A DNA stretch of 63,768 nucleotides, the filler included, from Phoronis australis (Eukaryota; Animalia; Phoronida), in NCBI GenBank assembly GCA_002633005.1. It is 7 parts of 7 records of this genome, joined end to end, with 100 filler letters (N's around TTAATTAATTAA, not from the genome) between each part and the next. Parts side by side here need not be neighbours in the genome. Positions count along the whole stretch, not along the records: positions 1 to 10,589 come from NMRA01001744.1; 6 more parts are not named here. One strand, written 5' to 3'. The notes beneath the pieces are model-generated. The model saw nothing but the letters and a program-made list of their open reading frames with translations, searched no databases and had not been told where the DNA came from. The translations under genes were made by a program, and so were the position numbers. Below are positions 1 to 59,869 of this stretch, piece by piece; positions within the stretch are counted from its first letter, which is position 1; the number at the start of each line of letters is the position of its first letter.

Positions 1-88
1 CAGACAGCCACGCATGCGCAATTTAATCACCACTAGTACAGCAGCGACACCACGAGGAGAATTCTCCGAATAGCCCCGTTATACACTT

Positions 89-641
89 TGTAGTAATAGC
101 CGAGATTACCCGACCTGGGAATCGAACCAGCGACCCCCATAAAACCGGCAAACGTGCTAACCATTCAGCTATTAGGTAATTGCCCATTAGCGAGTAGCTA
201 ACAGAGGCTCATATATGATTCACCGAAAGCACACCTACAACATTCCCCCCTTTCCTACGGAACAGGCACGCCACCAGAAAGGTGAACACCAGGATGTCTC
301 ACATACAGGTCATCAACGTCATCAACGTCCCTTGGTACCTTTACCACCACAACACAGGTGAACCCAAGGTCGTCTCTCATACAGGTCCTTGCCTCCTGCA
401 ACCTTCCATGCGCGCTGTCCCGAGGTCTGCAGGTACTAGTTGGCAGTGCTTCATCGGTAGATCATCCGTTTTGCCGACTACGGCATTTGTAATTATAGCC
501 GAGATTACCCGATCCGAGAATCGAACCAGCGACCCCCATAAAACCGGCAAGCGTGCTAACCATTCAGCTAATAGGCAATTGCCCGTTAGCGAGTAGTTAA
601 CAGAGGCTCATATATGATTCACCGGAAGCACATCTATAACA
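89..641 (-). mobile_element. TRIM (miniature non-autonomous LTR retrotransposon) with tRNA-derived LTRs
   Basis: Two 154-bp direct repeats (89-242, 488-641) differ at 13 positions by manual alignment and have TG...CA ends. On the minus strand a PBS-like TGCCGTAGTCGGCA (485-472) follows the 5' LTR and a PPT AGGAAAGGGGGGAA (256-243) precedes the 3' LTR. Each LTR contains tRNA-like A and B boxes. No clean TSD. Confidence 0.85.
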
Positions 642-2363
642 CCTATAGGTAAAAAAGGGAGTACAGCCATTACATCATTATATCGAACAGCTGGAAGTCT
701 GGCAAGGTTCGCAATTGGCTCCTGCATGACTTTCAATCTGCCAACATATCTGAGTCAGATAATGAAAGACCAGGATCGAGCCTCAAATTGCAACCAACCA
801 CAGCGATAGCCTCATCAGACTTCCAGTAGTTCTATATAGCGATGTAATGGCAAATGCTATACTCCCTCCTTTACTTATGATGTATTCTTGAGATATGTTC
901 TAAAAGATCGAATTAATAACCTTGCTATGCAGCAGAGGTAGGGTGAGCAAACTCAAATACAAATTTCATCAGAAACACTTGAAAAGAGTGTTAAATGATA
1001 GCCTTAGACATGCCATTTATACAAGTTTTTGAATTTTTCAAATCGGTTCAGCGGTTCTCGAGTTATTTGAATTTTAGAGCCTCAAAAATGGCCTTTTTTT
1101 CAGCAAACGGCACCCAGAAATTTCAGGCCACAGAAAATGGCAAGTTTAGACAACTATATTTGGGAATCCATAGCTCACNAAAAAATGAAATGAACTGTGA
1201 ACTCAAGATAAGTTGTCGCACTAGAAATTTCATGTGAAAATTTCATAGTTTCTTAAGTAGACCAGCTAAATTAGTAAATTTCAAATCAAATATGGACCAG
1301 GTGATCAGTTTTAATGGCATCATTAAAAACAATGATGTTTTAAAATAAATGTTGAAAAGGTACACCCTTGTCGGAAGAAAACACACTGTCACAGACAAGA
1401 CAACAAACAACAGAAATTTACTTGACTCCATTAAGCATTACCTTCTTTACTTTTGGAACTGTGGTGTTCTATATACATAAATATTTCAAATTATCAGCCT
1501 GTTAATGCAACTACATACACGGCTTCCATAACAAAGTCAAGGTAAAAGTTAAGTTTTCAGAAAAATAAACATGTAGTAACACCACTGACTTTTGTTGCAA
1601 ATCAAATCACAAATTAAAGAGTTTTAGTGAATACAGAACTCGTCATTGTATGACAAGGAGGGAGATTGCGGCCAGCATTCGAAATACAAGCTGGCCCGGG
1701 GTCAGTGGATTTGCGGCCGGGGCCAGTGGATTTGCGGCCGTGCCAGTAAACTTTCACATATAGGCCTATCTGGATGCAGCCTCATATTCAAGAACCTAAC
1801 CTGGTGGGCCAGCACATTTATTTGCTGAAGGTCGAACACTGATTGAACCACAGTGATTCAAGATAGAGAAAGAATGACATTTAAAACAGCATCAATCAGC
1901 CTCATCCCTACATGTTTGTTTAAAAAGTTTTGCACTATGTTTGGAAATATTAAGCCAAGTTTGAAGACCCCTGAGCAAGCTTTGAAAAGCTAAAAGCTAT
2001 TTTTTTCTGCTTCACAAGATAAATGGTTAAAATATAGTACTGTGCAGAGTGGTACTTAGCTCAGTTTTTTGCAGTGGAAATGATATTGACATGCTTGAGC
2101 AAGTGAAAACAATATGCAAGCAATAGTTGTTCTTGTGAATTAATAGAAAGAAAATTAGGACACAAAAACATAATGCGGAATTCGCACAATGTTTGAATTT
2201 TTGCTCAAGGAGAACCCTGATCAATAACAAAAACATACATAACTGACCTTAAATAATTTTGCATAAGCAAAACTGATTTCAAAAAACAATATGTTTCTGA
2301 TGAAGCAAGTACATTCAAAATAAAAAATTCTATCATGAACTACAAGACATAAGACACCATTAC

Positions 2364-2531
2364 CATTCATTTTGACATTCCAAGTAAGCAAGAAGCCATC
2401 AGATGTTAGATAAAAGTTTTTGAGATCTTCAGGCATCATACAGGAATGTTTCTGCTCCCAAGTCAGAATTTCGTGGTGCTCTGCGGCTGCTTTATGGTGA
2501 TGACAAACATCCTTCACAGCAGGTCGCAGCA
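2364..2531 (-). CDS. TPGS2: Tubulin polyglutamylase complex subunit 2, coding exon 2 (later exons not located)
   Basis: tttcAG acceptor; encodes ...AAEHHEILTWEQKHSCMMPEDLKNFYLTSDGFLLTWNVKMN, matching the TPGS2 motif WEQKNNCVMPEDVKNFYLMTNGFHMTWSVK; GTAATG donor. Confidence 0.92.
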
Positions 2532-2990
2532 CTGAAACAAAAGCAACAATACAGAAAATAAAATTTCTTTCATGGCAACTGTTTTGAAACCGAGTCCGAC
2601 TTTTTTGTTACAAAAGCGGGAGAGGGATCCAAGAAAATGACGTCCATCAAATTGTTTCAATTTTGAACGACTGTAATGAACAATGTACATGTCATTTGAA
2701 TGTCAGAGTATCAAAACCTTAAGCACTGTTGGGCGAGCTACACTTTGATTAAGTCTCGTGAGAAAAACGCAGATTCATTTGTGAACTGAAAAAGTGAACA
2801 GTAACCTTTCCCAATTTTTACACACGATCCTTTACTAGCTGTGTTGTTACTTTCAGTTACAGTTAGCTAACTGGCTAAACAGCAGGTAGCCAAAATAGAG
2901 TGCGATATCTGGGGACTTCTTGTGATCGTGGGAATTCCAAGAGAATTTCCTGGGCAGATAAACTCAGAGTCAAAGACCCTACTCTATTGT

Positions 2991-3330
2991 GCCTGTTAGC
3001 CAGTAGTTAACAGAGGCCCATATATGATTCACCGGAAGCACATCTACTACAACTATAGGTAAAAAAGGGAGTACAGACATTACATCATTACATCGAACAG
3101 CTGGAACTCTGGCAAGGTTCGCAATTGGCTCCTGCATGACCTTCAATCTGCCAACACATCTGGGTCGGATAATGAAAGACCAGGATCGAGCCTCAAGTTG
3201 CAACCAACCACAGCAATAGCCTCATCAGACTTCCAGTAGTTCTATATAGCGATGTAATGGCAAATTCTACACTCCCTCCGTTACTTATGATGTATTCTAG
3301 AGGTATGATCTAAAGGATCGAATTAATAAC
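2991..3330. repeat. Local duplicate of ~581-920 (partial LTR plus ~280 bp flank) in TPGS2 intron 1
   Basis: Colinear high-identity match from 'gttagc.agtagttaacagagg' to 'gatcgaattaataacct'. Confidence 0.85.
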
Positions 3331-3401
3331 CTCCAGTGGCAGTGCTATCACGCAGATGACGTTCTGCACATTAGACAGTCCTTGTGAGAAAAACAGCGTA
3401 C

Positions 3402-3468
3402 TTAGAGTTTTGATTACACCCAGAGTTAGCTGCTCAAAGTGTTCCTGGATACTTGACAGGCCACTCAT
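3402..3468 (-). CDS. TPGS2: Tubulin polyglutamylase complex subunit 2, coding exon 1
   Basis: MSGLSSIQEHFEQLTLGVIKTL resembles the TPGS2 N-terminus (human HLEKLTLGITRIL). GT donor at 3401-3400, phase 1, compatible with exon 2. Confidence 0.85.
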
Positions 3469-3915
3469 GATTACAGTGGTATAAAAAGAGTGAAAATCTA
3501 CATCAAACAATGGTAAAAGCAATCCAAGCACACAGAGTCAACAACACAGACTCCAAAAATCCGTCGACGGAAATTTACCGCGCCACCTGCTGGTAAATAT
3601 TTGATGTTTGTATTCGATTAACTTTAGGTTTACTTCCATTTTGACTGAAGTTAAAGCATTTAATTGTTATCATGAAAATTGTATTTTTATTTATACAAAA
3701 TTATCAATTTAAAATTGCGGTTAATGTTAATATGTTTCATTCTCTTAAAATTCGTTTGACATATAATCACCGGATGTAAACAGGGAAATTGTCGAATGGT
3801 GCGAAGAGGGAGGTTACAGTTTTCAACTTTCATGTTTTGGTAGACCGTGCTCCTCAGCACCGTCCGGTTTTGTTTTGTGAATGGCACCATCATTGAAGAT
3901 TTGTTAGACTACAGC
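3469..3915. promoter_or_regulatory. Putative bidirectional promoter/5'UTR region between TPGS2 and STYX, with a CTCF-like motif at 3580-3593
   Basis: Divergent start codons at 3468 (-) and 3916 (+). GCGCCACCTGCTGG reads CCAGCAGGTGGCGC on the minus strand. Confidence 0.6.
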
Positions 3916-18036: not shown

Positions 18037-19888
18037 TTACATACAGTATGATTTTATAAGTAAGAGGAGAGTGCCTGAGAAACCGTAAGATTGTAATTTA
18101 TGTAGAAGCAGGTCATGGGGAACGACATCAAAAGCTGACGCAATGTTTAAAAATACGGATCTCACGTTGTACCCTTGCTCAAACTGGAGGTGGATGTCGT
18201 GTACAATTTCTGTAAGTTGCGGCACAGTGCTGTTACCAGGCATGAATGGCGACGATATATGAGGTTTTGTGAAGAGAGGTAGTCAAACATGTGCTGAGAA
18301 ATGATTTTTCTAAAATTTTGGATAAGTGTTAAGTAGAGTTACGGGGCGATAGTTGGCAATGTCTGTCTGGAGTTCTTTTTGTGTATTGGTATCATAACGC
18401 CAAGCTTCCAGTTCAAAGGAAATTTTCCAGATTGTAGTATTTTGTCAGAGGAAGTGTAAGCTCTCTTGCTATTATCTTGATCATTTTATTGGTTATGAGA
18501 TTGGTACCGTCGTTTTTGTTTTCGTCAATTTTTCTAGTAGTTTTCTGACTTCAGATGGTTGGGCCTCTATATAAGAGAGGTGTTCTAATGTTCTGAATGG
18601 GAATTCTGGATAGTTTATTGTTGGTGCAATGTGACTCTTGGCAGTGAAGTAGTCTACAAATAAGATACTTTTATCGACTTTGGATGACGCCTGAGAGTTG
18701 GATTCTTTTGAGTGGATGGTGGGGTATGATGATTGCTTTACCTGTCCTCAAATTTTGTTTACTATATCCCAATATTCCTCAGAATTTTGGAGACATTTCT
18801 GATATTGGAGATAACTTTCATCTTATAGTCTTGTTTTGTCTTTTTTTAATTCTTCCACACTCTGGCACTGTTCTTTGTAGCACCTGAACGTGCATGGGTT
18901 ATTTGATCTTCTGAGCGATCTGTACAGTTTATTTCTTTTATTTATTTCAGACTTAATGTTATTGTTAAACCACGGTTTGTTCTTGTTTCTTATTGTTTTC
19001 ATGGTTGATACGATATCATTATCTAATATGTTGTAGAGTGACTGTGTGAATATTGAGACTGCGTCATTTATTTCACTTTTGTTAAGTATTTCAGTCCAGT
19101 TGAATGTGGTTATGTCAGAGCGCAGTTTGTCCATGTTAATGAGATCTTCTTCATAAAGTCTGGTTCTTTAGGTGCGCAGTTGAGTGTGAATGTTGTTTCT
19201 ATAACGTGGTGGTCTGAGTTACCAATGGGAGACTTTACAGAAGTGGATTCAATTAATCCGAGATTCCTTGTTATACATAAATCAAGGCAAGAATGCGAAT
19301 ACTCTGGTAAACGTGTCGGCTCGTTTATTAGTTGTATACAGTCATTGGTGAGGAGAATATCGAATAATTCGAGACCGGCTTGTCTTCTGAGTACCAAGTA
19401 CTATTTCGTGCGTTGAAATCCCCGTTGATAACAATTGTTTTATTAGTTTGAGAGAGTTCTTGCTATTGTTCTGAAAAGGTTTTGAAATATGATTTCCTTT
19501 CATGGGACGTCTGTGAGGGTGAGCGATAGAAAAAAACGTAATATACCTTTTTGTGGTTGACGTAAAGTTCAATCCAACAGTTACTCATTGATTGTATAAT
19601 TTTATCATCAATTGTTTTGTAATTTACGGAGTTGCGGACAAACAAGATCAACCCCCTCAAGGCGTTAGTGTGGTAGGCAAAGTAGTATTCTGGATGAATA
19701 AGTGCACTGAGATTGTCTTCGGACAGTGTTCCAGATTCACATATAGCAATGACCATGTAATTGCTGTCTGTAATAACTTGCTTGAGAACATCAAATCTTG
19801 AAAGATTGTTCGCCTTGATACTGTTGATATTAGCAATATTATGAAATCCAATAAAACTTTGGCTTACATGTAAGTATGAAATTGGCAC
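18037..19888 (-). mobile_element. Decayed LINE ORF2 (CR1/L2 group): APE endonuclease and N-terminal RT
   Basis: APE motifs (NINSI, IAICES, YRSPS, GDFNAR, NEPTR, CLDL, SDHH), KPWFN linker, and RT motifs (NYRPVTLL, VFLNIASAFDVVPH), with several frameshifts. Confidence 0.9.
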
Positions 19889-20499
19889 AAGAAATAAAAT
19901 GCATCAATTGCATTGTTCTTTCCAGGAAGAACAAATACGTTAAAGGAAAGGGGAATGCTCAAAATTGTGAAAGGCCGTTGGGTGTATCACTGGACAACAA
20001 TCATTTGTCTTTCAAACAAGATATTTTGTACATCAATGAGACAACTATCAACAAGCTGATCTATAAGTGATTTTTTTGCAAAATTTCATACATGTTTTGT
20101 CCCCTTGTGTGGCAATATTTTATCATCATAGGCAGTGCACTGACTGGAAAAGCATATTGAGCCCTCAAAATACCCAACACTTGAAGTTGATAGAATCTAC
20201 AAACTTACGTTTGAGGTTTTTATTAAAGCTCGTGGTCCATTGTGTGGTGATGGAAAGTTTTAATTGACTTGAAGACATTGGCTATGATTTTCGTGCCCAT
20301 TCATGTTCTGTCATGTGATTGGAGGGGCCCAGCCCGAAGGCGACTGAAGAACAGATTTTTGTATTATGATAGGGAGCCTTATCAGTCAAAAAGCGGGCCA
20401 ATTATGCAGTTTTACAGGAAACCCTGAGAAGATGTATGAACATTGGGACCTCCTGTAATAGTCAGGGGCTGTGACCAAAGGTAGTCAAACAGTGGTGCC

Positions 20500-25810: not shown

Positions 25811-28138
25811 CTATGGTTAGGTTATATCATTACTAGACTGTAGGTACTAGCCTGCTGTTCACACCTGTAGCTGTTTCAAGCCTCCTATCACAGCATCAAC
25901 CCAAGACAATTATGAGAAAGGTAGTGTGATCACATACACCATTGTTATGCTTGGCAATATGTTTCTCACCTCTGCGGAACGCACGCAGCCCTGATTTTTT
26001 CCAAATGCCGTATATGTTAACATGACTAATGACCACCTAAACGTCATCAAAGTCTACATAACAGGATGCAACGTCTGTGCATGACTGAGTTACTTTGAAG
26101 CTTAGCATTTCTGTATCATTTTTTACTGGCGAGATCAGGTAGCGATACGATTTCTGTCTACTTTCAAGTTTTAGCTGTTGTTACAGTAACATGAGTGGGC
26201 TTGAAATCATAAAACATCTTGTGGCTACAACCAAGTACACTCATTTATCGTTGATCAAACACAATATTAGAAGATTAGTCAATTGAAAGAAGATGTACAG
26301 AATGTTGTCATCCTAATAACCACTCATCTATAAAGATTTCTTAGTTACTGATAGTGATTTCAGAAGATCGATGCAGATGGTGAAAGCCAGATGGTAAATT
26401 GACAGAAACCAGTCCATAGATTGATCCTTTGTTCTGAGAGATTTCTTTTGATTGACAACACCACGTCTCACTTGTCAATCACACACACTGCCCCTTGTGT
26501 AGAGGGCAACATATTTCCTTTCCTGTTGTGCCATAGATGTCTCTGGGGTATTGTACAAAAAGTGCATTACGAGCAACCTCACTTAACTTGGCACTCTCGG
26601 GACCGTGCTAATATTGATGTCTACTCCGAGTGACGGCTTATGTGTAAGCTTTTGTTTTGATGAGATGAATGCTAAGGGACTCGGACCTGCATATGTCCAG
26701 CTGTGTCAAGTTCTGGATCATCAAATTTACGTGTAAAAAGTTTACAAGAATTGTTGCGCATTTTGTTTAGTTAAGTTACTGTTACTAAACTGGTCATCAT
26801 CGTCGTGATTGATTATTTTAGAAGTGATATGGTAAAATTTCGTCACTTTAGGAGATTATAAGGTGGATGAGTTCAGTTTTTGTTTTTGTTTCTGGCACTA
26901 AATTAATTCTTTCCAAGCTCTATCATAAAAGGTAATATCCGAGTTTTGCTTTGCAAAAAACGTTGGCATTTACAACAATGTTAGAGCCCTTGAAATGAGA
27001 AAACGTTCAATCCACATCTATTTTTGGTCTAACGTTTGTAAGAGTTTACCGTAGTGCCAAGAAATAAACAAAATATTGCGAGGATCGCTTAACGATAACA
27101 TTTTGGCATCCGAACCTCATTCTAAACCCATCTCAGTTTTTACGGTTACCCATTGGAGACATTTAACCATGAAAAATTATAAAGTGTTACTTTTGTTGGA
27201 GGCTTAATTTTTACTTGCAGCACGTCGCAACAATTTTTGAATGCTGCGGAAGTTGTCTGTTGAGTATATGCCCTCAACATGTGTTTGAAGTGGTCATGAC
27301 TTATGCCAAGACTTTGCTTTGGATCTGTTGAATGAGGTCTACTCTGAGTGATGAATTGAACACAAACAAAAACTACCGTGCTAGGGATTGTTTTTGGAAT
27401 GTTCGACTTTTGCATGAGGAGCCATCAAAAGTAGGACTTAGACAATTTTTCTAAAAAAAATGAAGAAAATTGCGTGAAACAAAATTGAAATTATAATAAA
27501 CTAAAACAGCATGTTAGAGATTTTATCTTAAATATTGATGCCAAATGTTTTTGCTGCTATTGTTTTGCTGTGAACCTACATTTCTTTTGAGCGAAATGTT
27601 GCCAAAAGACATCGTCCCTGGACGTAATTAATGGGAGATCAGTATAATGTACAGACTTTCTACTTTCAGAAAATATATTCTTTTGCTTTGTGAAAATGCA
27701 TGTCTCTGTAGATACTTGGCTAAACACACAGAGACCTGTCGGTAATGTCCTGCCTAACCTTAACAGATCTTGTAACAGTAGTAGTTTCTTTTTTCACAAC
27801 CAGTAAGAAGATATTTACCCTTGACAGTTTCGGCTCCTATCAGCAGCAATCTTCCGAAAGTATTGGACACTAGGTGGCGTAGTGATCAGGATGTTCCAAA
27901 TTCTGGCCAACTTATACCCCCCATCGACCCTGTTCATGACCGATCCACTTTTCTTGACCCAGATTGACTGTCATGGTTAAGTGTTCTTACGGGTTGTGAG
28001 AAAAGAAAGTTCTACTCATCAACTCCACCAACCTTATGAAATTATTTAGAAATCTTGTAACAACTGAAAAATATGTGGTACTGTAAAGTGTCTCCAAGTT
28101 AGGACTCAGTATGATGGAAAAGTGAATTTTTCCTTTTT

Positions 28139-29619
28139 ATGCGCCCACATAATTATATGTGGACGCATTATGCCCGTCATCTCCGTCCGTCCGTCTGTCC
28201 GGGCGGCGTCTGTCCGGCGTCCGCTGCTTTATCTCCAAAACCCTTTGACATACGTTCATTAAATTTGGCACATATGTTCCATTCATGAATGGGACGGATT
28301 CCACCATCGGTGTGCCCCCTAGTGACAATTTTAGTTTTTTACGCTTACCTTTGTATCTTCAAAAGTGCTTAACGGATTTTCATGAAATTTGGTATGTAGG
28401 CACCTATTAGTGAGATGACGCTATCCTCCTGTTTTCAGATGGATTCGACATAGTTTGCGCCACCTAGTGGCCATTTTTACTGTTTTCGAGTCTGTATTTT
28501 TGCGTCCACCCCTCTATCAACCAAACCGCTCAAAGGATGATTGTGAAAATTGGCGTGTATGTGCTTACTATAAGGAAGACAGCTGACAATGATTTTCAGA
28601 TGATTTGGACTACTGTGGCGCCTCCTAGTGGCAGTTTTGTTTTTTTGCGCCTATGGGTATATCTCCTAAACCGTTTGCAGGATCTTTACGAAATTTAATA
28701 AGTGTATTCATATGATGTTAACAACAGAGGATGACGACTTTTGGACGGATCCGCCTACCAGTGTGCCCCCTAGTGGTAATTTTATTTTTTTACGTTTACC
28801 TCTGTATCTTCACAAGTCCTTAACGGATTTTCATGAATTTTGGTATGTAGGCACCTATTAGTGCGATGACGCTATCCTCCCGTTTTGGGATGGATTTGAC
28901 CTAGTTTGCGACACCCAGTGGCCATTTTTACTGTTTTTGAGTCTGTTTATTGGCGTCCACCCCTCTATCAACCAAACCGCTCAAAGGATGATTGTGAAAA
29001 TTGGCATGTATGTTCTTACTATGAAGAGGACGGTTGACGCTGAATTTCCCATGTCTTTGATTACTATGGCGCCTCCTAGTGGCATTTTTTTGCGCCCATG
29101 GCTGTATCTCCCAAACCGTTTGGAGGATCTTTACTAAATTTAGCAAGTGTATTTATGTGATGTTGACAACGGACGATGACGACATTAGGATGATTCTGAC
29201 TACCGGTATGTCTCTAGTGGCAATTTTAGTATTTTACATTGACCTCTGTATTTTCATAGGTGTTCAGGTGTATACTTTGTGTTACTTCGTGCCTATGAAG
29301 GAAAAGTTCCAAGAAGAAATTTGTTTCTGGCATTCTAATGCTGTGCTAATCTCGTATGTTGGTAAATTTGTTTTTAATTCTATGTTTCTGTGATGCTTTA
29401 AGCAACTGATGTATTGGATGTGCTTGTATTATGAAGATACTCACATTTTGCCCCTAGCCTATTGAGGAGACAATGACCATGCCTTTCCATTTTGCAAAGT
29501 ACAACATACTACATATATGCCCTCTACTGGCCACTTTATGGTACCAATAAACAACCCCAGAAGGATACCGTATACGGTGCAATTATGGGCGCATTTCAAC
29601 GCTCTGCGTTGCTCTTGTT
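28139..29619 (+). mobile_element. Helentron-associated interspersed element (HINE/DINE-1-like), copy 1
   Basis: 5' subTIR ATGCGCCCAC with a nearby inverted copy; (GTCY)n microsatellite; ~150-bp internal tandem subunits; 3' subTIR ATGGGCGCAT; CAACGCTCTGCGTTG stem-loop; T-rich ends. Confidence 0.88.
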
Positions 29620-32529: not shown

Positions 32530-34202
32530 TTAAAAGTATTTGCCTGACGATTTGATTTTAAAATGTTGAACTGGGCTGTTTTAGTGACTTCATGATGGTC
32601 GTTAAGCGGAAAGTTTCTTCAAAATATATTATTGAAACAGTGGGCACCTGCGTATTAAATTGTATTTGTGCATAATGCTGTCATAGCTGTAGCTCTTAAA
32701 ATGGATCGCAAGAAGATCTTCATGAAATTTGAACATGATAATGCCTAACGTACATGCTGTCGTCTGCTGCTATGGCTTCATGATGTGTGCCCCCAATTTA
32801 GTATTTTGGGCTCTGTTCTTTGGCTATACCTCTGTTTAAGACAAACAATTTGAAGGATCGTCACGAAATTTCAGTGCATCTTGCCATAAGTAGCAAATGT
32901 TGGTGGTTTATATCCTCAAACAAAAAACACAAATTCTCTAACTCTTATCTACAAACAATAAGATGGCAGCACCAGTTTAAACACTTAAATGGCAAGACAT
33001 GACAATCTTATTGTCCAGAACGTCATCAATGGTTGAAGTTGAGTTCTATATGGATACAAACACTGCTACGCCTTGTAGCAGCAGTTTTAATTTTTGCACC
33101 TCAGTGTCTAGCAAGTTCTCTGGAGGATTGTTGTGAAATGTCATAGATGTTTCGAATGAGGAGTACATGACTGACAATGATCATCAGACGAATCTGGCTA
33201 CTGCTATGCCCCCTAGTGACAATTTTATTTTTTTGCGTCTGGCTCTGTCAGTATTTGCCAAGTTCCTTAAAGGGACTTCACAGAACTTTGTAGACATATG
33301 TTCAGACTGTTAGTGAAAGCATGCTCTGTGTTGACTTTTGGATGAGACTACTACTGTGCGACCATGTGGCAATCTTGCATTTTTTTGAGTTTGCCTAAAA
33401 TTTAATTGACAGGTGTGCTTCTCAAGTGAAGAAGAGCTGTCCAGTTTCCCATAGCTCTGACATGTTCTGCATGCCTTGTGGCAGTTTTAGCATCTTGGTT
33501 TGAAAAACATTATGGCATTTGATGAAGGTGCCTCTGTTGATGGAAACCTGGCTGATGTTGATTATTGGACAGCTTTTCTACTAGTACGCCCCCTAGTGGA
33601 TTTTTTTTGAAATTTCACAGATGACATGTAATCCAGGTGAGAGCAGCATTTGCCCAATGCACTGTTCTGAGTTGCGTTTGAAAAAAATAGCATTGCCACA
33701 TATGTGATGCAAGTGGTTAGTGTATACCAGTGCCTCCTGCAGTGTATACCAGCGCCTCTTGGAGAGTATACCAGCACCTCCTGCAGTGCTCTGGTGTGAA
33801 ATGAGGATAGAAAATGAAACCGTTAAGTCCTGGAGTTTCAGTGGTTTGGAAGAAATGATTTTACAATGACTCTGCCTACTTGGTCCCATCATCCAATCAA
33901 GCCATTGTTTTGAAAAATGAAGACCCAAAGTAGACAGGAAATTAACAGGATGTGTGATCACAAGTAATTATCTTCTTGCAGTGGAAAGTTGTTTTTCTGT
34001 CTATGGCTAATAATAGTGCAAGTATGAGCAACCAGGAAGGAAGGTTGTTTGTGAAGTATATGTCTCAGTGGCATTGTTTCTTTTTGTTGAAAATTGGTGT
34101 TGAACAAGAAGCTTGATGTTCATCACTGTCCTTAATCTACTGTCAGGGTGTAGGGTCTAATCTTGTGTGCTAAGTCGAAATCAAAATTATTTTGTCATTT
34201 TT

Positions 34203-35712
34203 GTGCGCCCACATATTTATATGTGGACGCATTATGCCGTCATCTCCGTCCGTCCGTCCGTCCGTACGGGCGGCGTCCGTCCGGCGTCCGCTGCTCTATC
34301 TCCAAAACCCTTTAACACATGTTCATGAAATTTGACACATATGTTCCATTTATAAATGGGACGGCATGTGCGAACTTTCGGACGGATCCGACTACCGGTG
34401 TGCCCCCTAGTGGCAATTTTAGTTTTTTTACGCTTACCTTTGTATCTTCACAAGTCCTTATTGGATTTTCATGAAATTTGGTATGTAGGCACCTATTAGT
34501 GAGATGACGCTATCCTCCCGTTTTCAGATGGATTCGACATAGTTTGCGCCACCTAGTGGCCATTTTTAGTGTTTTCGAGTCTGTTTTTGTGCGTCCACCC
34601 CTCTATCAACCAAACCGCTCAAAGGATGATTGTGAAAATTGGCATGTATATGCTTACTATGTAGAGGACGGTTGACGATGATTTTCCGACGATTTCGACT
34701 ACTGTGGCGCCTCCTAGTGGCAGTTTTGTTTTTTTTGCGCCTATGGCTGTATCTCCTAAACCGTTCGCAGGATCTTTACGAAATTTAATAAGTGTATACA
34801 TATTATGTTAAAAACAGACGATGACGACTTTTGGACGGATCCGCCTACCAGTGTTCTCCCTAGTGGCAATTTTATTTTTTTACGTTTACCTCTGTATCTT
34901 CACAAGTCCTTAACGGATTTTCATCAAATTTGGTATGTAGGCACCTATTAGTGCGATGACGCTATCCTCCCGTTTTCGGATGGATTCGACCTAGTTTGCG
35001 ACACCCAGTGGCCATTTTTACTGTTTTTGAGTCTGTTTTTTGGCGTCTACCCCTCTATCAACCAAACCGCTATAAGTATGATTGAGAAAATTGGCATGTA
35101 TGTTCTTACTATGAAGAGGACAGTTGACGCTGAATTTCCCATGACTTTGATTACTGATGCGCCTCCTAGTGGCAGTTTTTTTTGCGCCCATGGATGTATC
35201 TCCCAAACCGTTTGCAGGATCTTTACTAAATTTAGCAAGTATATTTATGTGATGTTGACAATGGACGATGACGACTTTAGGATGATTCTGACTACCGGTA
35301 TGCCTCTAGTGGCAATTTTAGTATTTTACATTGACCTCTGTATTTTCATAGGTCTTCAGGTGTATACTTTGTGTTACTTCGAGACTATGAAGGAAAAGTT
35401 CCAAGTAGAAATTTGTTTCTGGCATTCTAATGCTGTGCTAATCTCGTATGTTGGTAAATTTGTTTTTAATTCTATGTTTCTGCGGTGCTTTAAGCAACTG
35501 ATGCATAGGATGTGCTTGTATTATGAAGATCACTCACATTTTGCCCCTAGCCTGTTGAGGAGACAATGACCATGCGTTTCCATTTTGCAAAGTACAACAT
35601 ACTACACATATGCCCTCTACTGGCCACTTTATGGTACCAATAAACAACCCTAGAAGGATACCGTATGCGGTGCAATTGTGGGCGCATTTCAACGCTCTGC
35701 GTTGCTCTTGTT
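34203..35712 (+). mobile_element. HINE copy 2
   Basis: Colinear with 28139-29619. Boundaries are confirmed by the empty-site duplicate at 36314-36762. Confidence 0.92.
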
Positions 35713-47681: not shown

Positions 47682-50600
47682 TCCAAACCTGCAGAAAATG
47701 TAATTAATCTATAAAAACATAGCACTCATACAACAATATTATGTTAGCAGTTAATTAAAGCCACATTACCTCAATTTAAAAAAAATTAATTAAGCTAGTT
47801 AGCCCTATCCAAATGCACTTTTTTACCGTGACAGTACATTAAAACCTTGGGCAGAGTTTAATTGAAGCGTCTCAAATTTCAGCGACCTCGCCATCCAAAG
47901 TGACTGATGTATTAGTTTTCACATATCGCTAATTATATCCTAGAAAATCAGTTGCTTTGAAAATCTCAGCAATGACCAGTCAATTAAATGGTGAAGAAGA
48001 TGTCACCTAGCCAGGTAATTTGCAAGTCCATGACAGTGATGTTGTTAATTTGCATGTTTTTTATTTCACGAAGTGGAGAGGATGCGCTTTAAACTGGGTG
48101 CTATGAACCCGCTCTCATCACAGAAATTAACTTTTGGTTTAAACCACTATCCGCTATGAAACTGATCTCAAATTGTCCCTCAATAAAAACGGAGATGATT
48201 CCAGGGATTTGAAATAAATGACATGTCGTCAGTGCTGGAGACTAGGGTATACAATATGTTGGCTTGTCACGACCGCCGTGTCATTTTATGCGCTTAGCGG
48301 CAATGTCTCGACGAATAACCAACTGTCAGCTCGTTGCAATTTCAGAAATCACGTCTCATCTTAGCATGGAATACGTCGAGACCAATTTTATAACGGCAAG
48401 AAGTCTAAATTTAAGGTCCGCGGAATTACAATCGCTTTAACCTTAAGTGGATCCAGTGTCGTAGTTTTTTCATCGTTCATAAACACATCCAACGTCTTGA
48501 GATCAACGCGGCGCTCATTTGAAGTAAAAAATAACTTCAGGAGGAGATTAAATGACATAAACGCTCTGTTTACAATCTCACAGCAGAGGGTATTCTAGAT
48601 TTTGTTCTTGAACACCAAAATTATTTCTACAGGTTAAGAACAAAAGGTTGTTGACATAGGCGAAAACAAATGCCTTTGAAAAATTCACCCTCCTACGTCT
48701 TAAAATACTTACTTTTGTAAATTTTCTGAACTGTTTACAACAATTTCGCAGGTCGACCAAATGCCACTTTGTTTCAAAACTCCCTGTCTAGACCCATTTA
48801 TAGACACGCGTAGGGTTTCCCCAAAATGACGGAAACCCTTCTCTTCATATCTATTGGGCAGTTTACGGAGTGACGTCACTTGTTTATCGGGAATCACCAC
48901 TACTCATGTTGCCGGGTGTGCGATCATAGAAGTAAGTTTTACGACCAAATTTGTTTGATAACTCGGTCACAAAAGTTCATTCTACGGAAAGTAGAGAGTT
49001 AGGAATGACCTAAATTTCTTGTATCACAGGGTATTACAGAAGTTCATTCTATGGAATGTCGAGACTTAGGTTTGACCTAAATTTCTTGTGTCACAGCGCC
49101 GCACCAGGCTGACCGAGCCCAAACATCCGTGTTCAATCGGGGTTCATTTCCGTCTGGCCAAGACTCAGTCGACGCGTATTTGGATCTGCGGCAGGGCATG
49201 ATGTGCACTTTGGAGGTTTACGGATACATATTACAACGAAAGGTGTGTCTGTGCCCTCCTTGCGACGGGCAAGACCCGCCAATTGCACACATTCCCATGA
49301 TCCAACCCATGTCCTATCTCCAATTATCCGGGAATGCTACTGTTTAGCACATCAGAATTTTTTATTATTCACTGTAACACCAGGAAGATAAATCCTTGAG
49401 TCACGTATACTACGGAATACTGTGTATTGCTGTTGTTATACATTCAGCGTATAGTACAACGTTGTTGTTGCTGAGTAGATTTGTTTGTTCAACGTAAGTC
49501 GAACACGTAATGCCGTACACTCCATGACGGCGACATCCCATTGCTCCCAACTTGTTCGAAGTTTACCCCCGTAGCCAATATCTTACACGACTGATTAACT
49601 CCAGTCTGGCATTTATGGTTGAAGGGCCTGCGCTCTTTTGTTCGATAATTGCTCTAATCTCCGATCAGATCATACCTAGTCTGACTGGGCTGGGCTGATA
49701 AAAATGAAAGTTAAGTTATAACATATTTGAGCTTACAATAGCATTTCTGAATTCCTCGTCAAATGCTGAACATGTTAAGTTTTTGAATCACCAAAATCGC
49801 CCAACTACAACAGAATTTAAGACTATTCTGTCCAAACGGATTAACAACGCACTAGGTTTGACTGTGTTCTGAATACGCGTTCGGTAATAGCGTGCAACCA
49901 CCATACGTTTCCTTTGAAGCTTGGGAGATAATCGGCCTGCTTGTTATCATACGGGACACAAGACTGAGCTGGGCAGTTAACAAAAGAGCCAGATGTTATC
50001 GCACGTTCAGCATCCCTCACGTCTGGAAAAGTTACTGAACTACAGAACGCTGTAATGAAAGTCAAACCTCTACTGAATACCAATACACAAGAGTGAATGG
50101 ATATTGTAAAATAAATATATTTATTTCATTTGTATTTCTATGGTGTATTTGTATAGTGAGGTGATCCAGTAAATCGTTGAAAGCCTCAGAAGTCCGTCCT
50201 ATAATCCTTATAAAATGTTCACTTCTTTACAAACAGAAACTGCTTATAAGTAATGTGAGTTTTCGCTCTTTCTTTGTCCACATGTCACTGTGCTGACTTG
50301 GTTTTTGCTGCGGATGACACGACTACGAGAGCCGAATACTCCGATAAGGAATAATGGCTGCGAATAATGAGCACGGTTTAAGACAATTCGTTGCCGGAAG
50401 ACTTTTCTAACTGACAAACATCGTTATTGGTGGCAACTTTCTCCATCTGCTGAAGGCACACTCAAAATATTGAACCAGGAAATAGGCTATGTCACTTATG
50501 TGGAGTCAATGCTTCACTAAATCAAAACTGATGTTTTTTTGTTGCTGTACTCTATATCACGACTAGAAAACGATATAATGAGGCCAACAACTTGCATTCT

Positions 50601-54483: not shown

Positions 54484-54725
54484 CACTTATCAGAGTGTCA
54501 AGTACTTCATAAGTGTAAATGCTTATTCTCCACATGTGCATATCACTTATCAGAGTGTCAAGTACTTCATAAGTGTAAATGCTTATTCTCCACATGTGCA
54601 CACCACTTATCAGAGTGTCAAGTACTTCATAAGTGTAAACGGTTATTCTCCAAATGTGCACACCACTTATCATAGTGTCAAGTACTTCATAAGTATAAAA
54701 TTTATATGGTTATTCTCCACATGTG
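54484..54725. repeat. 60-bp tandem repeat, ~4 copies (about 2 copies in the duplicate at 55409-55530)
   Basis: Unit cacttatcagagtgtcaagtacttcataagtgtaaatgcttattctccacatgtgcacac. Confidence 0.92.
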
Positions 54726-54812
54726 CAATGCAACCTTGAAGTATGGTAAAATGTGTCCACTTTGGGACAGAGAAAATTTTATCATTTCGCTCAAGGTTGG
54801 AACTTGTCACAA

Positions 54813-54925
54813 ATAAGTATGGTATGGCTATAACACAGATAAGTATGGTATGGCTATAACACAGATAAGTATGGTATGGCTATAACACAGATAAGTATGG
54901 TATGGCTATAACAGTATGGCTATAG
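54813..54925. repeat. 26-bp tandem repeat (second array at 55618-55755)
   Basis: Unit ataagtatggtatggctataacacag. Confidence 0.92.
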
Positions 54926-54949
54926 CACACACAACTTTCATGGTAATCA

Positions 54950-55170
<221 letters not shown>

Positions 55171-55780
55171 NCATGGAGACTACAACACACAACAAGAGTC
55201 CTTACATGACACATGGAGACTACAACACACAACAAGAGTCCTTACATCAACACTGATAATAGGAAATGGTCAACTTTCAAGTCACTGAAGTTCTAGAGGT
55301 CGGGCTGTCCACGTGAGAATAAATTTCAAACTGTTTTTGAAATTACTGTGTCTAAATGTACAAACAGATTTAACAGAGGAGCCATCAAGTTTATCTCCAA
55401 CAGTCAACCACTTATCAGAATGTCAAGTACTTCATAAGTGTAAATGGTTATTCTCCACATGTACACACCACTTATCATAGTGTCAAGTACTTCATGAGTA
55501 TAAAATTTATATGGTTATTCTCCACATGTGCACAGCAACCTTGAAGTATGGTAAAATGTGTCCACTTTGGGACAGAGAAAATTTTATCATTTCGCTCAAG
55601 GTTGGAACTTGTCACAAATAAGAATGGTATGGCTATAACACAGATAAGTATGGTAGGGCTATAACACTGATAAGTATGGTATGGCTATAACACAGATAAG
55701 TATGGTATGGCTATAACACTGATAAGTATGGTATGGCTATAACAGTATGGCTATAGCACACACAACTTTCATGGTAATCA

Positions 55781-56065
<285 letters not shown>

Positions 56066-57268: not shown

Positions 57269-59512
57269 CAGAAATTTGGAAATGCGAGCTGAGATTTTTG
57301 TCAGCTCGTATCAAGTCACTAAATGCGACCTGGAATTTCCAACTATACGAGCTGAGTTTTTACACTTCTCAGAAGAAACCTGTTTCCAGTTCAGTAACGC
57401 TAGGACCTCGCTAAAAAGCAAGACTTCGCGAGATTACGCGAGATATTGCCGTGCATTTTAAATGAGAGCACGTAACTTTGACTAGGTTTTAGCTAGGTTC
57501 TAGCATAGGTCCTAGCGTCTACTGAGCACACGCCTGGCAAATTTAAAGCAACTCTTGTTAATCCGACCGTTATTTGGTTGTTGCCAAATCCAAGTTCAAA
57601 AGAATGCCAACCGACAACAGCCCTCCCGATGACTTGTACACGTCAGCAAGTCGCGTGAAAATGGGATATGCAGAATCGATCTTTGTCGCGTTTCATTTGC
57701 TAACACTTTCGGCAACTTTTGCCAAGTTTCCGGAATCGGGCCGGAAAGTTTCGGGCCACTGCATAACACGTGATAAAATGTCACAACACGGCAGTGTTTC
57801 CACTTAATTCTTAAGCGATCAAACTTTGTGGTGAAAATATGTTTATTTTTTTGCGTAAGATGTCCTTGTTACATGTACCAAATATCCACGACAACATCCC
57901 TGATATTGCGGCACTGATCGGTCCGGTTGTTAGCGCAGACAATCGTGACTTAAAGATGTGCGTCTCATTTTTATTGCCTATGACAGCCAAAGTCAGGGAC
58001 GGATCCAGGATTTTTATTTGGGGNGTCTGCAACTGAATGTAAAAATGAAAACCCTATTAATTGCCAAAAGACGGCCACGTCTTTACTTTCAGTTACCAAG
58101 AAATTATCTAACCCCTTTACTTGTTTCTGGGGCTACATGCGCGAAATATGATTTAACTTTCACACGTTGCTGCCATCGTAAATAATGGGCGCACCCAGGG
58201 GGGATCGGGGGCTCGAACGAGCCCCCGAATTTGGCGAATTGGGCGAAAAATTTCGCCTCAGTGAAACAAAAAGTCCACCGCAAAGCCCACAGGAATTCGG
58301 CGCGGATGCACGATGTGCAAGCCTGAACCTACTGGTCCCGTTTTTTAGTCATCGTTGATTTTTTTCAGTAACAGGTCCGCATATGGAAGAATTCGAGCCC
58401 CCCTATATTTTAGGCTGGGTGTGCACATGTAAAGTGTAGGCCTGCTCCAGCGATTCAAGTGGGAGGACTTCAAAGCTGCAAATCAAAAGAGAACAGCTGC
58501 AGTCCTAAATGAAAAAGTATACCAGCTTGGCTCTGTTAAGCACCCGGGTACGTGCAAGTGGTTTATTTGAAAATGAGCTCATAGATTCCCGGCGGTTATA
58601 AAAGACCCGATGCTTTACGATATTCCCCGGGACCGATAGAATCCAGAACTGATATTTCCTGTGACGATGTTTCCCGAGGTCGATGTTCCCTAAACCCTAT
58701 ATTCTATGCCCATAGCCAGCTGTTGCAACTGAACGGGTACTAGATGTGAAATTGTGGTCGACGATTTTTTATTCTTCTCTTCATACACCCCCCTGGCAAG
58801 TTTTCGCTCCCCGGACCACCGTCACCGTAAAATGTTTCAGACTCTAATTGAAACAATCTTGTTCCAGCTGAAGCAGGCAATTAAAAACAAAGTTATTCCG
58901 GGTGGCTAAAAAGGGTACAATGTAGGTGGTAACGATATCCAGAAAGTCACCCCTATAATATTATAACGTTTCTTACCATTGCAGTCATTTAATATCTTGT
59001 TAACGCAAACACTCAGTAAACAACAATGCTCACGCACAAGCCTACTACCTACCCAGGCCTTCATGCAGTGTACGACATGGACGCCCTAGCACTAATGTGG
59101 ACACTCTGGCAAGGACGCCCAATGTATCATTTGGACGCCCTGTCAATCAGAATTTCTCCAGTTTGTACACCCACATTGTAAGATTACTAAGACTCCCAGT
59201 TAATCAAAGAGAGAAGGTGGCCCTTTCAACTCAGAAAGAAATATACAATGTATTTCAAATGTTGCAATGTTCAAACTATTTTCAAAGTATTTGGTAGACC
59301 TGTCAATCATTAGCACATGTTTGGTTGCCAGAGTGTCTGCTTTCAGTACACTCACGTGCCACTGCAATTCTGTACTTTATATAGGGACATGGACCTTGCT
59401 CAACTCCAAACTGGTGTTTCAGAGCTGTAGTTTAATCTACTTCATCTTTTTTTGAAAACACCAAAAGCGAAATAAATGTCATTATTTTAATAATATGATG
59501 TGCCGCAAGAAN

Positions 59513-59869
59513 CTATACTCTATGCCCATAGCCAGCTGTTGCAACCGAACGGGTACTAGATGTGAAATTGTGGTCGACGATTTTTTATTCTTCTCTTCAT
59601 ACACCCCCCTGGCAAGTTTTCGCTCCCCGGACCACCGTCACCGTAAAATGTTTCAGACTCTAATAGAAACAATCTTGTTCCAGCTGAAGCAGGCAATTAA
59701 AAACAAAGTTATTCCGGGTGGCTAAAAAGGGTACAATGTAGGTGGTAACGATATCCAGAAAGTCACCCCTATAATATTATAACGTTTCTTACCATTGCAG
59801 TCGTTTAATATCTTGTTAACGCAAACACTCAGTAAACGACAATGCTCACGCACAAGCCTACTACCTACC
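59513..59869. repeat. Near-identical duplicate of ~58697-59053, starting after a single N
   Basis: Colinear match from ctatgcccatagccagctg to ctactacctacc. Confidence 0.9.

What the first reader, a model, noticed from the sequence alone, without database searches (positions are those of the whole stretch)
89..641. Miniature LTR retroelement whose LTRs carry a tRNA-derived Pol III unit
Seen: two 154-bp TG...CA repeats, a PBS matching 13/14 nt of the complement of the eukaryotic tRNA-Ser 3' end (TGGCGTAGTCGGCA), a 14-purine PPT, and a ~245-bp non-coding core. Inside each LTR (minus strand, 177-108) is a ~70-nt tRNA-like sequence with A-box TAGCTGAATGG and B-box GGTTCGATTCC. Known: plant Cassandra TRIMs carry 5S rRNA in their LTRs. 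From memory, tRNA-LTR TRIMs have been reported as Helenus, so the architecture has precedent. Inference: this is a SINE/LTR hybrid transcribed by Pol III and mobilised by a tRNA-Ser-primed autonomous partner, probably an undescribed family in this lineage.
Basis: partly seen in the sequence, partly recalled or inferred. Interest (0 to 1): 0.75.

Follow-up and report, generated by a model that had tools for sequence, protein, structure and literature searches.

The report
Helenus mini-retrotransposon with fold-back LTR
This is an aged copy of a small, gene-less, multi-copy jumping element whose end repeats carry tRNA-type promoter boxes (a new family of the Helenus type described in 2024), and each end repeat holds a self-complementary stretch, seen by eye in many published relatives too, that likely lets the two ends of its RNA pair.

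Summary
Observation confirmed. A 553-bp non-coding LTR element lies on the minus strand (641 to 89): two 154-bp TG...CA repeats (13 mismatches), a tRNA-Ser primer site, a 14-purine tract, and box A/box B in each LTR. Public runs show a dispersed family with these exact ends. Other copies have the primer site intact, and both loci whose two flanks could be read have 4-bp duplications, as in animal Helenus (Kojima 2024); this copy's own flanks match 3 of 4 at best. No listed Helenus family has this PBS or these lengths, so it is a new family of a known kind; this scan has noted Helenus in at least 17 other genomes. By eye the same fold-back is in 33 of 51 bivalve and 3 of 3 nemertean Helenus, in coelacanth, sturgeon and zebrafish families and in 5S-bearing Ajax; I found no mention in the paper's text. 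It likely pairs the RNA ends (rival: a 3'-LTR-only terminator). Pol III transcription, the partner element and the fold-back's role are untested.

The parts
488..641 (-). 5' LTR, 154 bp, TG...CA
   Evidence: loose ends at 641
472..485 (-). primer-binding site for a tRNA-Ser 3' end (13 of 14 here; base 483 intact in the family), after a 2-nt spacer at 486-487
257..471 (-). non-coding core with a decayed two-copy repeat (271-334 / 347-410, 70%)
   Evidence: overlapping frames give no Pfam hit
243..256 (-). polypurine tract, 14 purines, abutting the 3' LTR
89..242 (-). 3' LTR, 154 bp, TG...CA
   Evidence: loose ends before 89
507..577 (-). tRNA-like part of the 5' LTR: box A 570-560, box B 527-517; stems degenerate
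   Evidence: not called by ARAGORN or Rfam
108..178 (-). tRNA-like part of the 3' LTR: box A 171-161, box B 128-118
554..602 (-). fold-back of the 5' LTR: U3 arm 602-581 pairs with 576-554 (20 pairs, 3 G-U); perfect 10-bp palindrome 583-574 at the centre
   Evidence: (I3)
155..203 (-). fold-back of the 3' LTR (19 pairs, 4 G-U; two private changes at 172 and 177 weaken it)
540..543 (-). only run of four T in the element's 5' LTR, 10 nt behind the fold-back, between box A and box B
   Evidence: no variant listed at 538-544
141..144 (-). same T4 run in the 3' LTR, predicted end of the transcript under the terminator reading
   Evidence: inference
85..88 (.). left 4-bp flank ACTT, possible decayed target-site duplication
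   Evidence: 3 of 4 with the duplicate's ACTA, chance 0.057
642..645 (.). right 4-bp flank CCTA
2990..3332 (-). local duplicate of 580-922: the U3 end of the 5' LTR plus 281 bp of flank, 93.6% identical, broken off at the centre of the palindrome

Best explanation
A 553-bp non-coding, multi-copy LTR retroelement with tRNA-type box A and box B in both LTRs, a tRNA-Ser primer site, a purine tract and 4-bp target duplications at the two loci that could be read (a Helenus-type TRIM), which is likely transcribed by RNA polymerase III from the 5' LTR and likely copied and integrated in trans by a Gypsy-type element, with an inverted copy of box A in U3 that would let the two ends of the RNA pair. 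Shown: anatomy, dispersed copies with fixed ends, intact family PBS, 4-bp duplications at two other loci, a 20-pair predicted fold-back. Inferred: Pol III starts near 577-585, the centre of the palindrome; tRNA-Ser primes the minus strand; the U3 arm is transcribed only in the 3' LTR, where it can pair with the box A/D-arm at the RNA's 5' end, bringing a short R region next to its acceptor for strand transfer (about 0.45 for end pairing or dimerisation as the main role of the fold-back); the purine tract primes the plus strand; solo LTRs arise by LTR-LTR recombination. This copy is old (LTRs 8.4% apart, PBS changed at the TGG) and probably immobile.
For: Anatomy. Family: 1497 and 1905 contigs laid on 1-1100; summed depth in the element far above the flank; unrelated flanks before 89 and behind 641. 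TSD: in run X8 119 reads loose before the LTR end in GGGC and 88 reads loose behind it begin with GGGC; a second locus gives CTTC on both sides in X6, X7, X8 (37/41, 29/22, 35/45 reads); 5 bp match in neither; chance per 4-bp match 0.0047. The first locus is a solo LTR (minus-mate depth 84-274 in the LTR, 5-7 in the core). Animal Helenus make 4-bp TSDs and share PBS types with Gypsy elements (PMC10886601). Fold-back: z -3.5 and -3.2 for 113-nt pieces; the 5' LTR duplex is reached by 1 of 2000 shuffles of U3 and 2 of 3599 window stretches, the 3' LTR duplex by 21 of 2000 shuffles; sense folds better than antisense (-21.8 vs -17.2, -18.3 vs -10.3); the two common family variants in paired positions (595, 597) keep the pair and none is listed at 554-580. 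The fold of 578-141 pairs the RNA's 5' end with the 3' U3 arm. By eye in the paper's DataS1: such an arm in 33 of 51 bivalve, 3 of 3 nemertean, coelacanth (19 of 21 pairs), sturgeon and zebrafish families, and in both Ajax families (13 of 13, 12 of 13) where the downstream sequence is different; centres are mostly loop-less palindromes of different sequence, which fits pairing between two copies better than a local loop. End-to-end pairing is known for Ty1 (PMC7969010, passages) and predicted for Cassandra (PMC7215508, passages).
Against: This copy lacks an exact TSD. The two TSD loci rest on pairing left and right loose ends by read number and linked variants; 151-nt reads cannot bridge a 154-bp LTR, and the other loose ends are mixtures. 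tRNA origin rests on the boxes and their spacing only (negative). No partner element and no Pol III transcript were seen; 68-74% of laid RNA reads run on into unrelated sequence. Two rare variants (581, 590) break pairs and no double compensatory change was seen within this family. The long-range fold is favoured here partly because the 3' LTR has decayed. The folded pieces were chosen after the palindrome was seen. The cross-family tally is a hand count on consensus sequences of related families; 18 of 51 bivalve, 3 of 3 brachiopod and the ctenophore family lack the arm, so it is dispensable.
Confidence: 0.85

Rival explanations
1. Same element, but the fold-back works mainly as a conditional Pol III terminator: the hairpin can form only in the 3' LTR part of the RNA, 10 nt before a weak T4 run, so polymerase would read through T4 in the 5' LTR and stop at 144-141, giving an RNA of about 440 nt with an R of about 40 nt.
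For: T4 at 543-540 and 144-141 is the element's only run of four T and shows no listed variant. A hairpin 10 nt upstream makes a U4 tract terminate in human cells (bioRxiv 10.1101/2020.09.11.294140, abstract and section 7); in yeast a hairpin at 0 or 7 nt but not 18 nt does (PMC9278858, passages). Cassandra ends inside the 5S part of its 3' LTR with an 18-bp R (as summarised in PMC10886601). By eye a T4+ run behind the tRNA part is in 19 of 21 arm-less but 16 of 36 arm-bearing mollusc, brachiopod and nemertean families.
Against: Most published arm-bearing families have no T4 at this place (by eye, 2 of 36 do). If transcription starts 5 nt upstream, the 5' LTR RNA also folds (-10.8 kcal/mol) just before T4. 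In the whole-transcript fold the local hairpin has pair probability 0.01. No pile-up of read ends at 141-144 (table 6; fragmented libraries cannot show it well).
Confidence: 0.25
2. The fold-back is a passive relic: one snap-back of the cDNA at the RNA's 5' end made an inverted duplication that was inherited, or it acts on DNA (cruciform, second box A on the other strand, factor site) and not on RNA.
For: The symmetry axis lies at the expected start site, as a snap-back would give; many families do without it; the local duplicate breaks at the palindrome centre, as DNA hairpins can cause.
Against: Complementarity is kept while the sequence changes between phyla and between tRNA- and 5S-derived LTRs (by eye); mismatches are mostly G-U compatible on the sense strand.
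Confidence: 0.25
3. A chance tandem pair of tRNA-derived SINEs, or a Pol II TRIM with an inert SINE remnant in its LTR.
For: LTR depth exceeds core depth many times over, as a free SINE would; this copy has no exact TSD; RNA reads are mostly inside host transcripts.
Against: TG...CA ends, PBS and purine tract in canonical places, no A-rich or repeat tail, 62 nt upstream of the tRNA-like part, 4-bp TSDs around lone LTRs; box A region without listed variants.
Confidence: 0.1

Closest known systems
Helenus TRIMs (TRIMp3), Kojima 2024, PMC10886601. Read: text parts 1-4 and 6 of 6; supplement parts 1, 5, 6, 7, 10, 11 of 11 and two searches of the whole file
   Same: Under 1 kb, two TG...CA LTRs with box A (TRGCY..YGG) and box B (GGTTC), PBS for a tRNA 3' end, purine tract, no ORF, 4-bp TSD, solo LTRs; most members are not working tRNAs.
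   Different: No listed family has LTR 154 / core 245, this PBS (0 hits; the 4 hits of the shorter string are in fungal purine-tract regions) or any of eight other LTR and core strings tried (one more string hit only fungal cores). The only T4 lies between the boxes, none behind the tRNA part.
Mytilid Helenus-2 (Helenus-2_MyGa, -2_MoPh, -2_LimFor)
   Same: tRNA-Ser PBS, LTR 141-156, core 226-268, same fold-back (by eye 22 of 22 pairs in MyGa, 21 of 22 in LimFor, with one double change between them).
   Different: Another tRNA-Ser 3' end; no sequence likeness outside the boxes that I could see by eye; three T, not four, behind the fold-back.
Ajax (nemertean) and Cassandra (plants), 5S-bearing TRIMs
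   Same: Pol III gene piece inside the LTR; Ajax has the same palindrome-centred arm (by eye); Cassandra LTRs are predicted to pair with each other (PMC7215508, passages).
   Different: 5S instead of tRNA boxes (no 5S hit here); Ajax makes 5-bp TSDs. The 2008 Cassandra paper was not held; what I say of it comes from Kojima's summary.
LTR retrozymes
   Same: Small non-coding LTR elements.
   Different: No ribozyme family matches 60-680 at E up to 10; only about 20 nt follow the tRNA-like part.

Membership tests
Helenus | TRIM under 1000 bp with two LTRs | tested here: met
   553 bp, 154-bp TG...CA LTRs; fixed ends in many copies
Helenus | tRNA-derived sequence in the LTR with box A TRGCY..YGG and box B GGTTC | tested here: met
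   both boxes, 43 nt apart, in both LTRs; 0.01 expected by chance
Helenus | direct similarity hit to a tRNA or SINE2 library (how the paper screened) | tested here: inconclusive
   ARAGORN and Rfam negative; Censor, Repbase and tRNAscan-SE not available
Helenus | PBS complementary to a tRNA 3' end just behind the 5' LTR | tested here: met
   13 of 14 here, base 483 intact in the family; compared with human tRNA-Ser, not the host's
Helenus | polypurine tract before the 3' LTR | tested here: met
   14 purines, 256-243
Helenus | no protein encoded | tested here: met
   four frames of 68-125 aa over the element, no Pfam hit
Helenus (animal) | 4-bp TSD, family level | tested here: met
   2 of 2 loci with both flanks readable; pairing of ends inferred
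Helenus (animal) | 4-bp TSD, this copy | tested here: inconclusive
   ACTT / CCTA, duplicate ACTA; 3 of 4, chance 0.057
Helenus / TRIMp3 | transcription by Pol III | not testable with these tools
   also unproven for published Helenus
Helenus (animal) | Gypsy partner with the same PBS | not testable with these tools
   no genome held
Cassandra / Ajax | 5S rRNA-derived sequence in the LTR | tested here: not met
   no 5S hit
LTR retrozyme | self-cleaving ribozyme in the LTR | tested here: not met
   no Rfam ribozyme at E up to 10
SINE2 pair | tRNA head at the 5' end, tail, variable ends | tested here: not met
   62 nt precede the tRNA-like part; fixed TG...CA ends; no tail

The most novel reading that the evidence does not exclude
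A large part of animal Pol III TRIMs (this family, bivalve, nemertean, coelacanth and fish Helenus, and 5S-bearing Ajax) share an overlooked, selected RNA module: a U3 arm complementary to the first 20-25 nt of the transcript around a loop-less palindrome at the start site. It tells two identical LTRs apart, by pairing the RNA ends or by making termination specific to the 3' LTR, and points to one ancient LTR scaffold that has swapped its small-RNA promoter, against the proposed repeated independent origins.
Probability: 0.45. Interest if true: 0.68.

Novelty: new member of a known kind. Interest (0 to 1): 0.42.

Why it matters
The class is known since 2024 and this scan meets it often, so one more family matters little. 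What could matter is the fold-back. A Pol III LTR element has a logical problem: the same LTR must start transcription at one end and end it at the other, and with a short R it must still do strand transfer. A U3 arm that exists only in the 3' part of the RNA offers a simple answer that a reporter assay and a covariation analysis can test directly, and it gives a structural marker for whether animal Helenus and Ajax share one origin. In practice, such LTRs also add many Pol III-like boxes to a genome and turn up in host transcripts.

Tried and rejected
Genome-wide copy and TSD count: no genome held; replaced by two lays on public runs, whose summed depths are no copy numbers (they suggest hundreds of cores and thousands of LTRs, no more). 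No RNA holder listed except one guessed run with a small share that I did not lay. RNA lays: reads cover the element on both strands, mostly inside other transcripts; one place with many read starts (223, 6 molecules), none; no evidence either way on Pol III. Empty-site allele: not among the 15 of 61 joints shown. Collection scans: viral 1 and 0 hits, metagenome 1 hit, prokaryote genomes 0; both hits are the same viral coding stretch and chance. Functional tRNA: rejected. Ribozyme: rejected. Host lineage: not determined; two protein searches found nothing, PDB nothing, 153 frames of the 246 listed plus long ones scanned with Pfam gave only LINE remnants and a CD20-like frame (frames beyond 43.5 kb mostly not scanned). 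Earlier notes of this scan: none by sequence, none for the hairpin words. Literature: searches (listings) and word searches in Kojima 2024 (hairpin, palindrom, inverted: 0 each), Satovic 2019 (hairpins in the core only) and a 2026 meeting report found no description of the U3 fold-back; figures, Repbase entries and subscription papers could not be seen. The published LTRs were compared by eye only, so covariation across families remains uncomputed.

Full report
Observation. The two repeats are at 89-242 and 488-641, 154 bp each, TG...CA, with 13 mismatches, 11 of them transitions (K2P 0.091). The element reads on the minus strand: 5' LTR 641-488, a 2-nt spacer, PBS 485-472, core, 14 purines at 256-243, 3' LTR 242-89. 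The PBS matches 13 of 14 nt of the antisense of human tRNA-Ser printed in PMC3299991 (passage). Box A (570, 171) and box B (527, 128) are the only such pair in the window, 0.01 expected. The tRNA-like part is not a cloverleaf: ARAGORN finds only two tRNA-Pro genes elsewhere, Rfam has no tRNA, 5S or ribozyme hit, and the 70-nt pieces fold like shuffles. Frames over the element have no Pfam hit.

Is it a family? No genome is held, so I laid public runs of the same species label. 1497 and 1905 contigs lie on 1-1100; summed depth over the element is orders of magnitude above the flank at 667-925. Unrelated sequence hangs loose before 89 (37 and 40 contigs, agreement 0.37-0.38) and behind 641 (14 contigs, 0.44), so the ends are true element ends. 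At 483 the other copies carry the base that completes the PBS (418 of 446, 2805 of 2926, 130 of 136 depth; 27 of 28 reads). LTR depth peaks far above core depth (306,882 against about 3,600 in X2; core up to 25,750); the tool warns this is no copy number, but it fits an excess of solo LTRs.

Target-site duplications. This copy has ACTT on the left and CCTA on the right; a local duplicate of 580-922 at 2990-3332 (93.6%) reads ACTA, 3 of 4, chance 0.057: compatible with a decayed 4-bp TSD, not proof. Two expressed loci could be read on both sides. In X8, 119 reads loose before the LTR end in GGGC and 88 loose behind begin with GGGC; a block of variants carried by 98-148 reads runs across the LTR, and minus-mate depth is 84-274 in the LTR against 5-7 in the core, so this is one solo LTR. 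A second locus has CTTC on both sides in X6, X7 and X8 (37/41, 29/22, 35/45 reads; its terminal TG reads TT). Five bases match in neither. Chance is 0.0047 per match. The pairing of ends is inferred, as reads are 151 nt; the remaining loose ends are mixtures and were not used.

The fold-back. One search showed a palindrome at 567-590. U3 (602-581) is an inverted copy of the acceptor 5' strand, box A and D-arm (576-554): 20 predicted pairs in the 5' LTR, 19 in the 3' LTR, z -3.5 and -3.2 for 113-nt pieces (pieces chosen after seeing the palindrome). The 5' LTR duplex is reached by 1 of 2000 shuffles and 2 of 3599 other window stretches, the 3' LTR duplex by 21 of 2000; the two tRNA-Pro genes show background values; sense folds better than antisense. 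Of six listed family variants inside it, three keep the pair (584, 595, 597, the last two common), one is unpaired (585) and two rare ones break it (581, 590); none is listed at 554-580. The centre is a perfect 10-bp palindrome at the place where Pol III would be expected to start. The element's only T4 runs follow 10 nt behind (543-540, 144-141), with no listed variant.

By eye, on the consensus sequences in the supplement of Kojima 2024 (hand count, related families not independent), an arm with an inner stem of about 10 pairs or more is present in 33 of 51 bivalve and 3 of 3 nemertean families, in the coelacanth (LTR1_LCh, 19 of 21 pairs), sturgeon and zebrafish (LTR-11_DR, two stems of 10) families that I checked closely, and in both Ajax families (13 of 13, 12 of 13), whose downstream part is 5S-derived. 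It is absent from 18 of 51 bivalve, 3 of 3 Lingula and the ctenophore family, and I did not see it in the fungal and wasp entries shown (only part of them was read). The paper's text has no 'hairpin', 'palindrom' or 'inverted'; searches and word searches found no description of it, though whole-LTR pairing has been predicted for Cassandra. Figures and Repbase notes were not visible.

Mechanism. Shown: anatomy, dispersed copies, intact family PBS, 4-bp duplications, predicted fold-back. From established LTR biology and Kojima 2024: tRNA priming at the PBS, plus-strand priming at the purine tract, integration by a Gypsy-type partner. Inferred: Pol III starts near 577-585. The U3 arm is then present only in the 3' part of the RNA. 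It can pair with the RNA's own 5' end, as in the fold of 578-141, like Ty1 cyclisation; loop-less palindromic centres of changing sequence fit this or dimerisation (about 0.45). Or it folds locally and turns T4 into a terminator in the 3' LTR only; hairpins 7-10 nt upstream do this to U4 tracts, but most published arm-bearing families lack T4 there and the 5' LTR RNA can also fold before T4 (about 0.25). Or it is a relic or acts on DNA (about 0.25). RNA lays do not decide: 68-74% of reads run on into other sequence.

Comparison and novelty. All testable defining features of animal Helenus are met, save a library hit to tRNA and this copy's own TSD, which are inconclusive. No listed family has these lengths or this PBS; mytilid Helenus-2 are nearest in plan. 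The host lineage was not determined; the window looks like an animal genome (spliced genes, a CD20-like frame, LINE remnants). The scan has 81 notes with Helenus-type words in at least 17 genomes, none on this sequence or on the hairpin; two notes on twister-bearing relatives prompted the ribozyme test, which was negative.

Verdict. Real; a new family of a known kind. Interest 0.42, carried by the fold-back rather than by the class. The novel reading, a selected U3 arm shared by many animal Pol III TRIMs, has probability about 0.45 and would deserve about 0.68.

Noticed in passing
window 1-77: End of another, very high-copy repeat: summed depth 36,000-54,000 in X1, unrelated flanks behind 77 starting ATT in four runs; looks like the terminus of a non-autonomous DNA transposon. 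The TRIM lies 11 bp from it.
   Followed up: partly
window 580-922 and 2990-3332: 343-bp local duplication, 93.6% identical, holding the U3 end of the 5' LTR and its flank; it shares private 5' LTR bases, so it postdates the insertion, and it breaks off at the centre of the palindrome.
   Followed up: yes
window 666-851: 36-bp inverted repeats, 86% complementary, 114 bp apart, low depth in the runs; a possible low-copy MITE relic.
   Followed up: no
window about 938-1100: A third dispersed repeat begins here.
   Followed up: no
window 2366-2531 and about 3400-3510 (minus); about 3916 onward (plus): Exons of a gene whose second exon has SMI1/KNR4-type features (0.94); from recall it is TPGS2-like, head to head with another gene. 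The TRIM would sit in its intron in the same orientation. Names and exon bounds are read by eye and recalled, not from a call.
   Followed up: partly
window 18040-19900 (minus): Broken LINE remnant: endonuclease and reverse transcriptase pieces below the Pfam cut-offs.
   Followed up: partly
window 42265-42336, 43925-43996, about 40852-40937: Two tRNA-Pro genes (TGG, AGG) and a decayed third copy, 80% alike.
   Followed up: partly
window 47064-47708 (minus): Single-frame 214-aa CD20-like membrane protein (E 0.00026, below cut-off); no homologue at E 0.001.
   Followed up: partly
window 28119-29619 / 34183-35712, 54602-55170 / 55407-56001, 58697-59053 / 59513-59869: Further direct duplications (92-99%), without TG...CA ends; two border on N gaps and may be assembly artefacts.
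   Followed up: partly
run X8, laid at window 520: 19 reads show a copy whose PBS is joined close to the LTR's inner part, a variant with a shortened LTR end.
   Followed up: no
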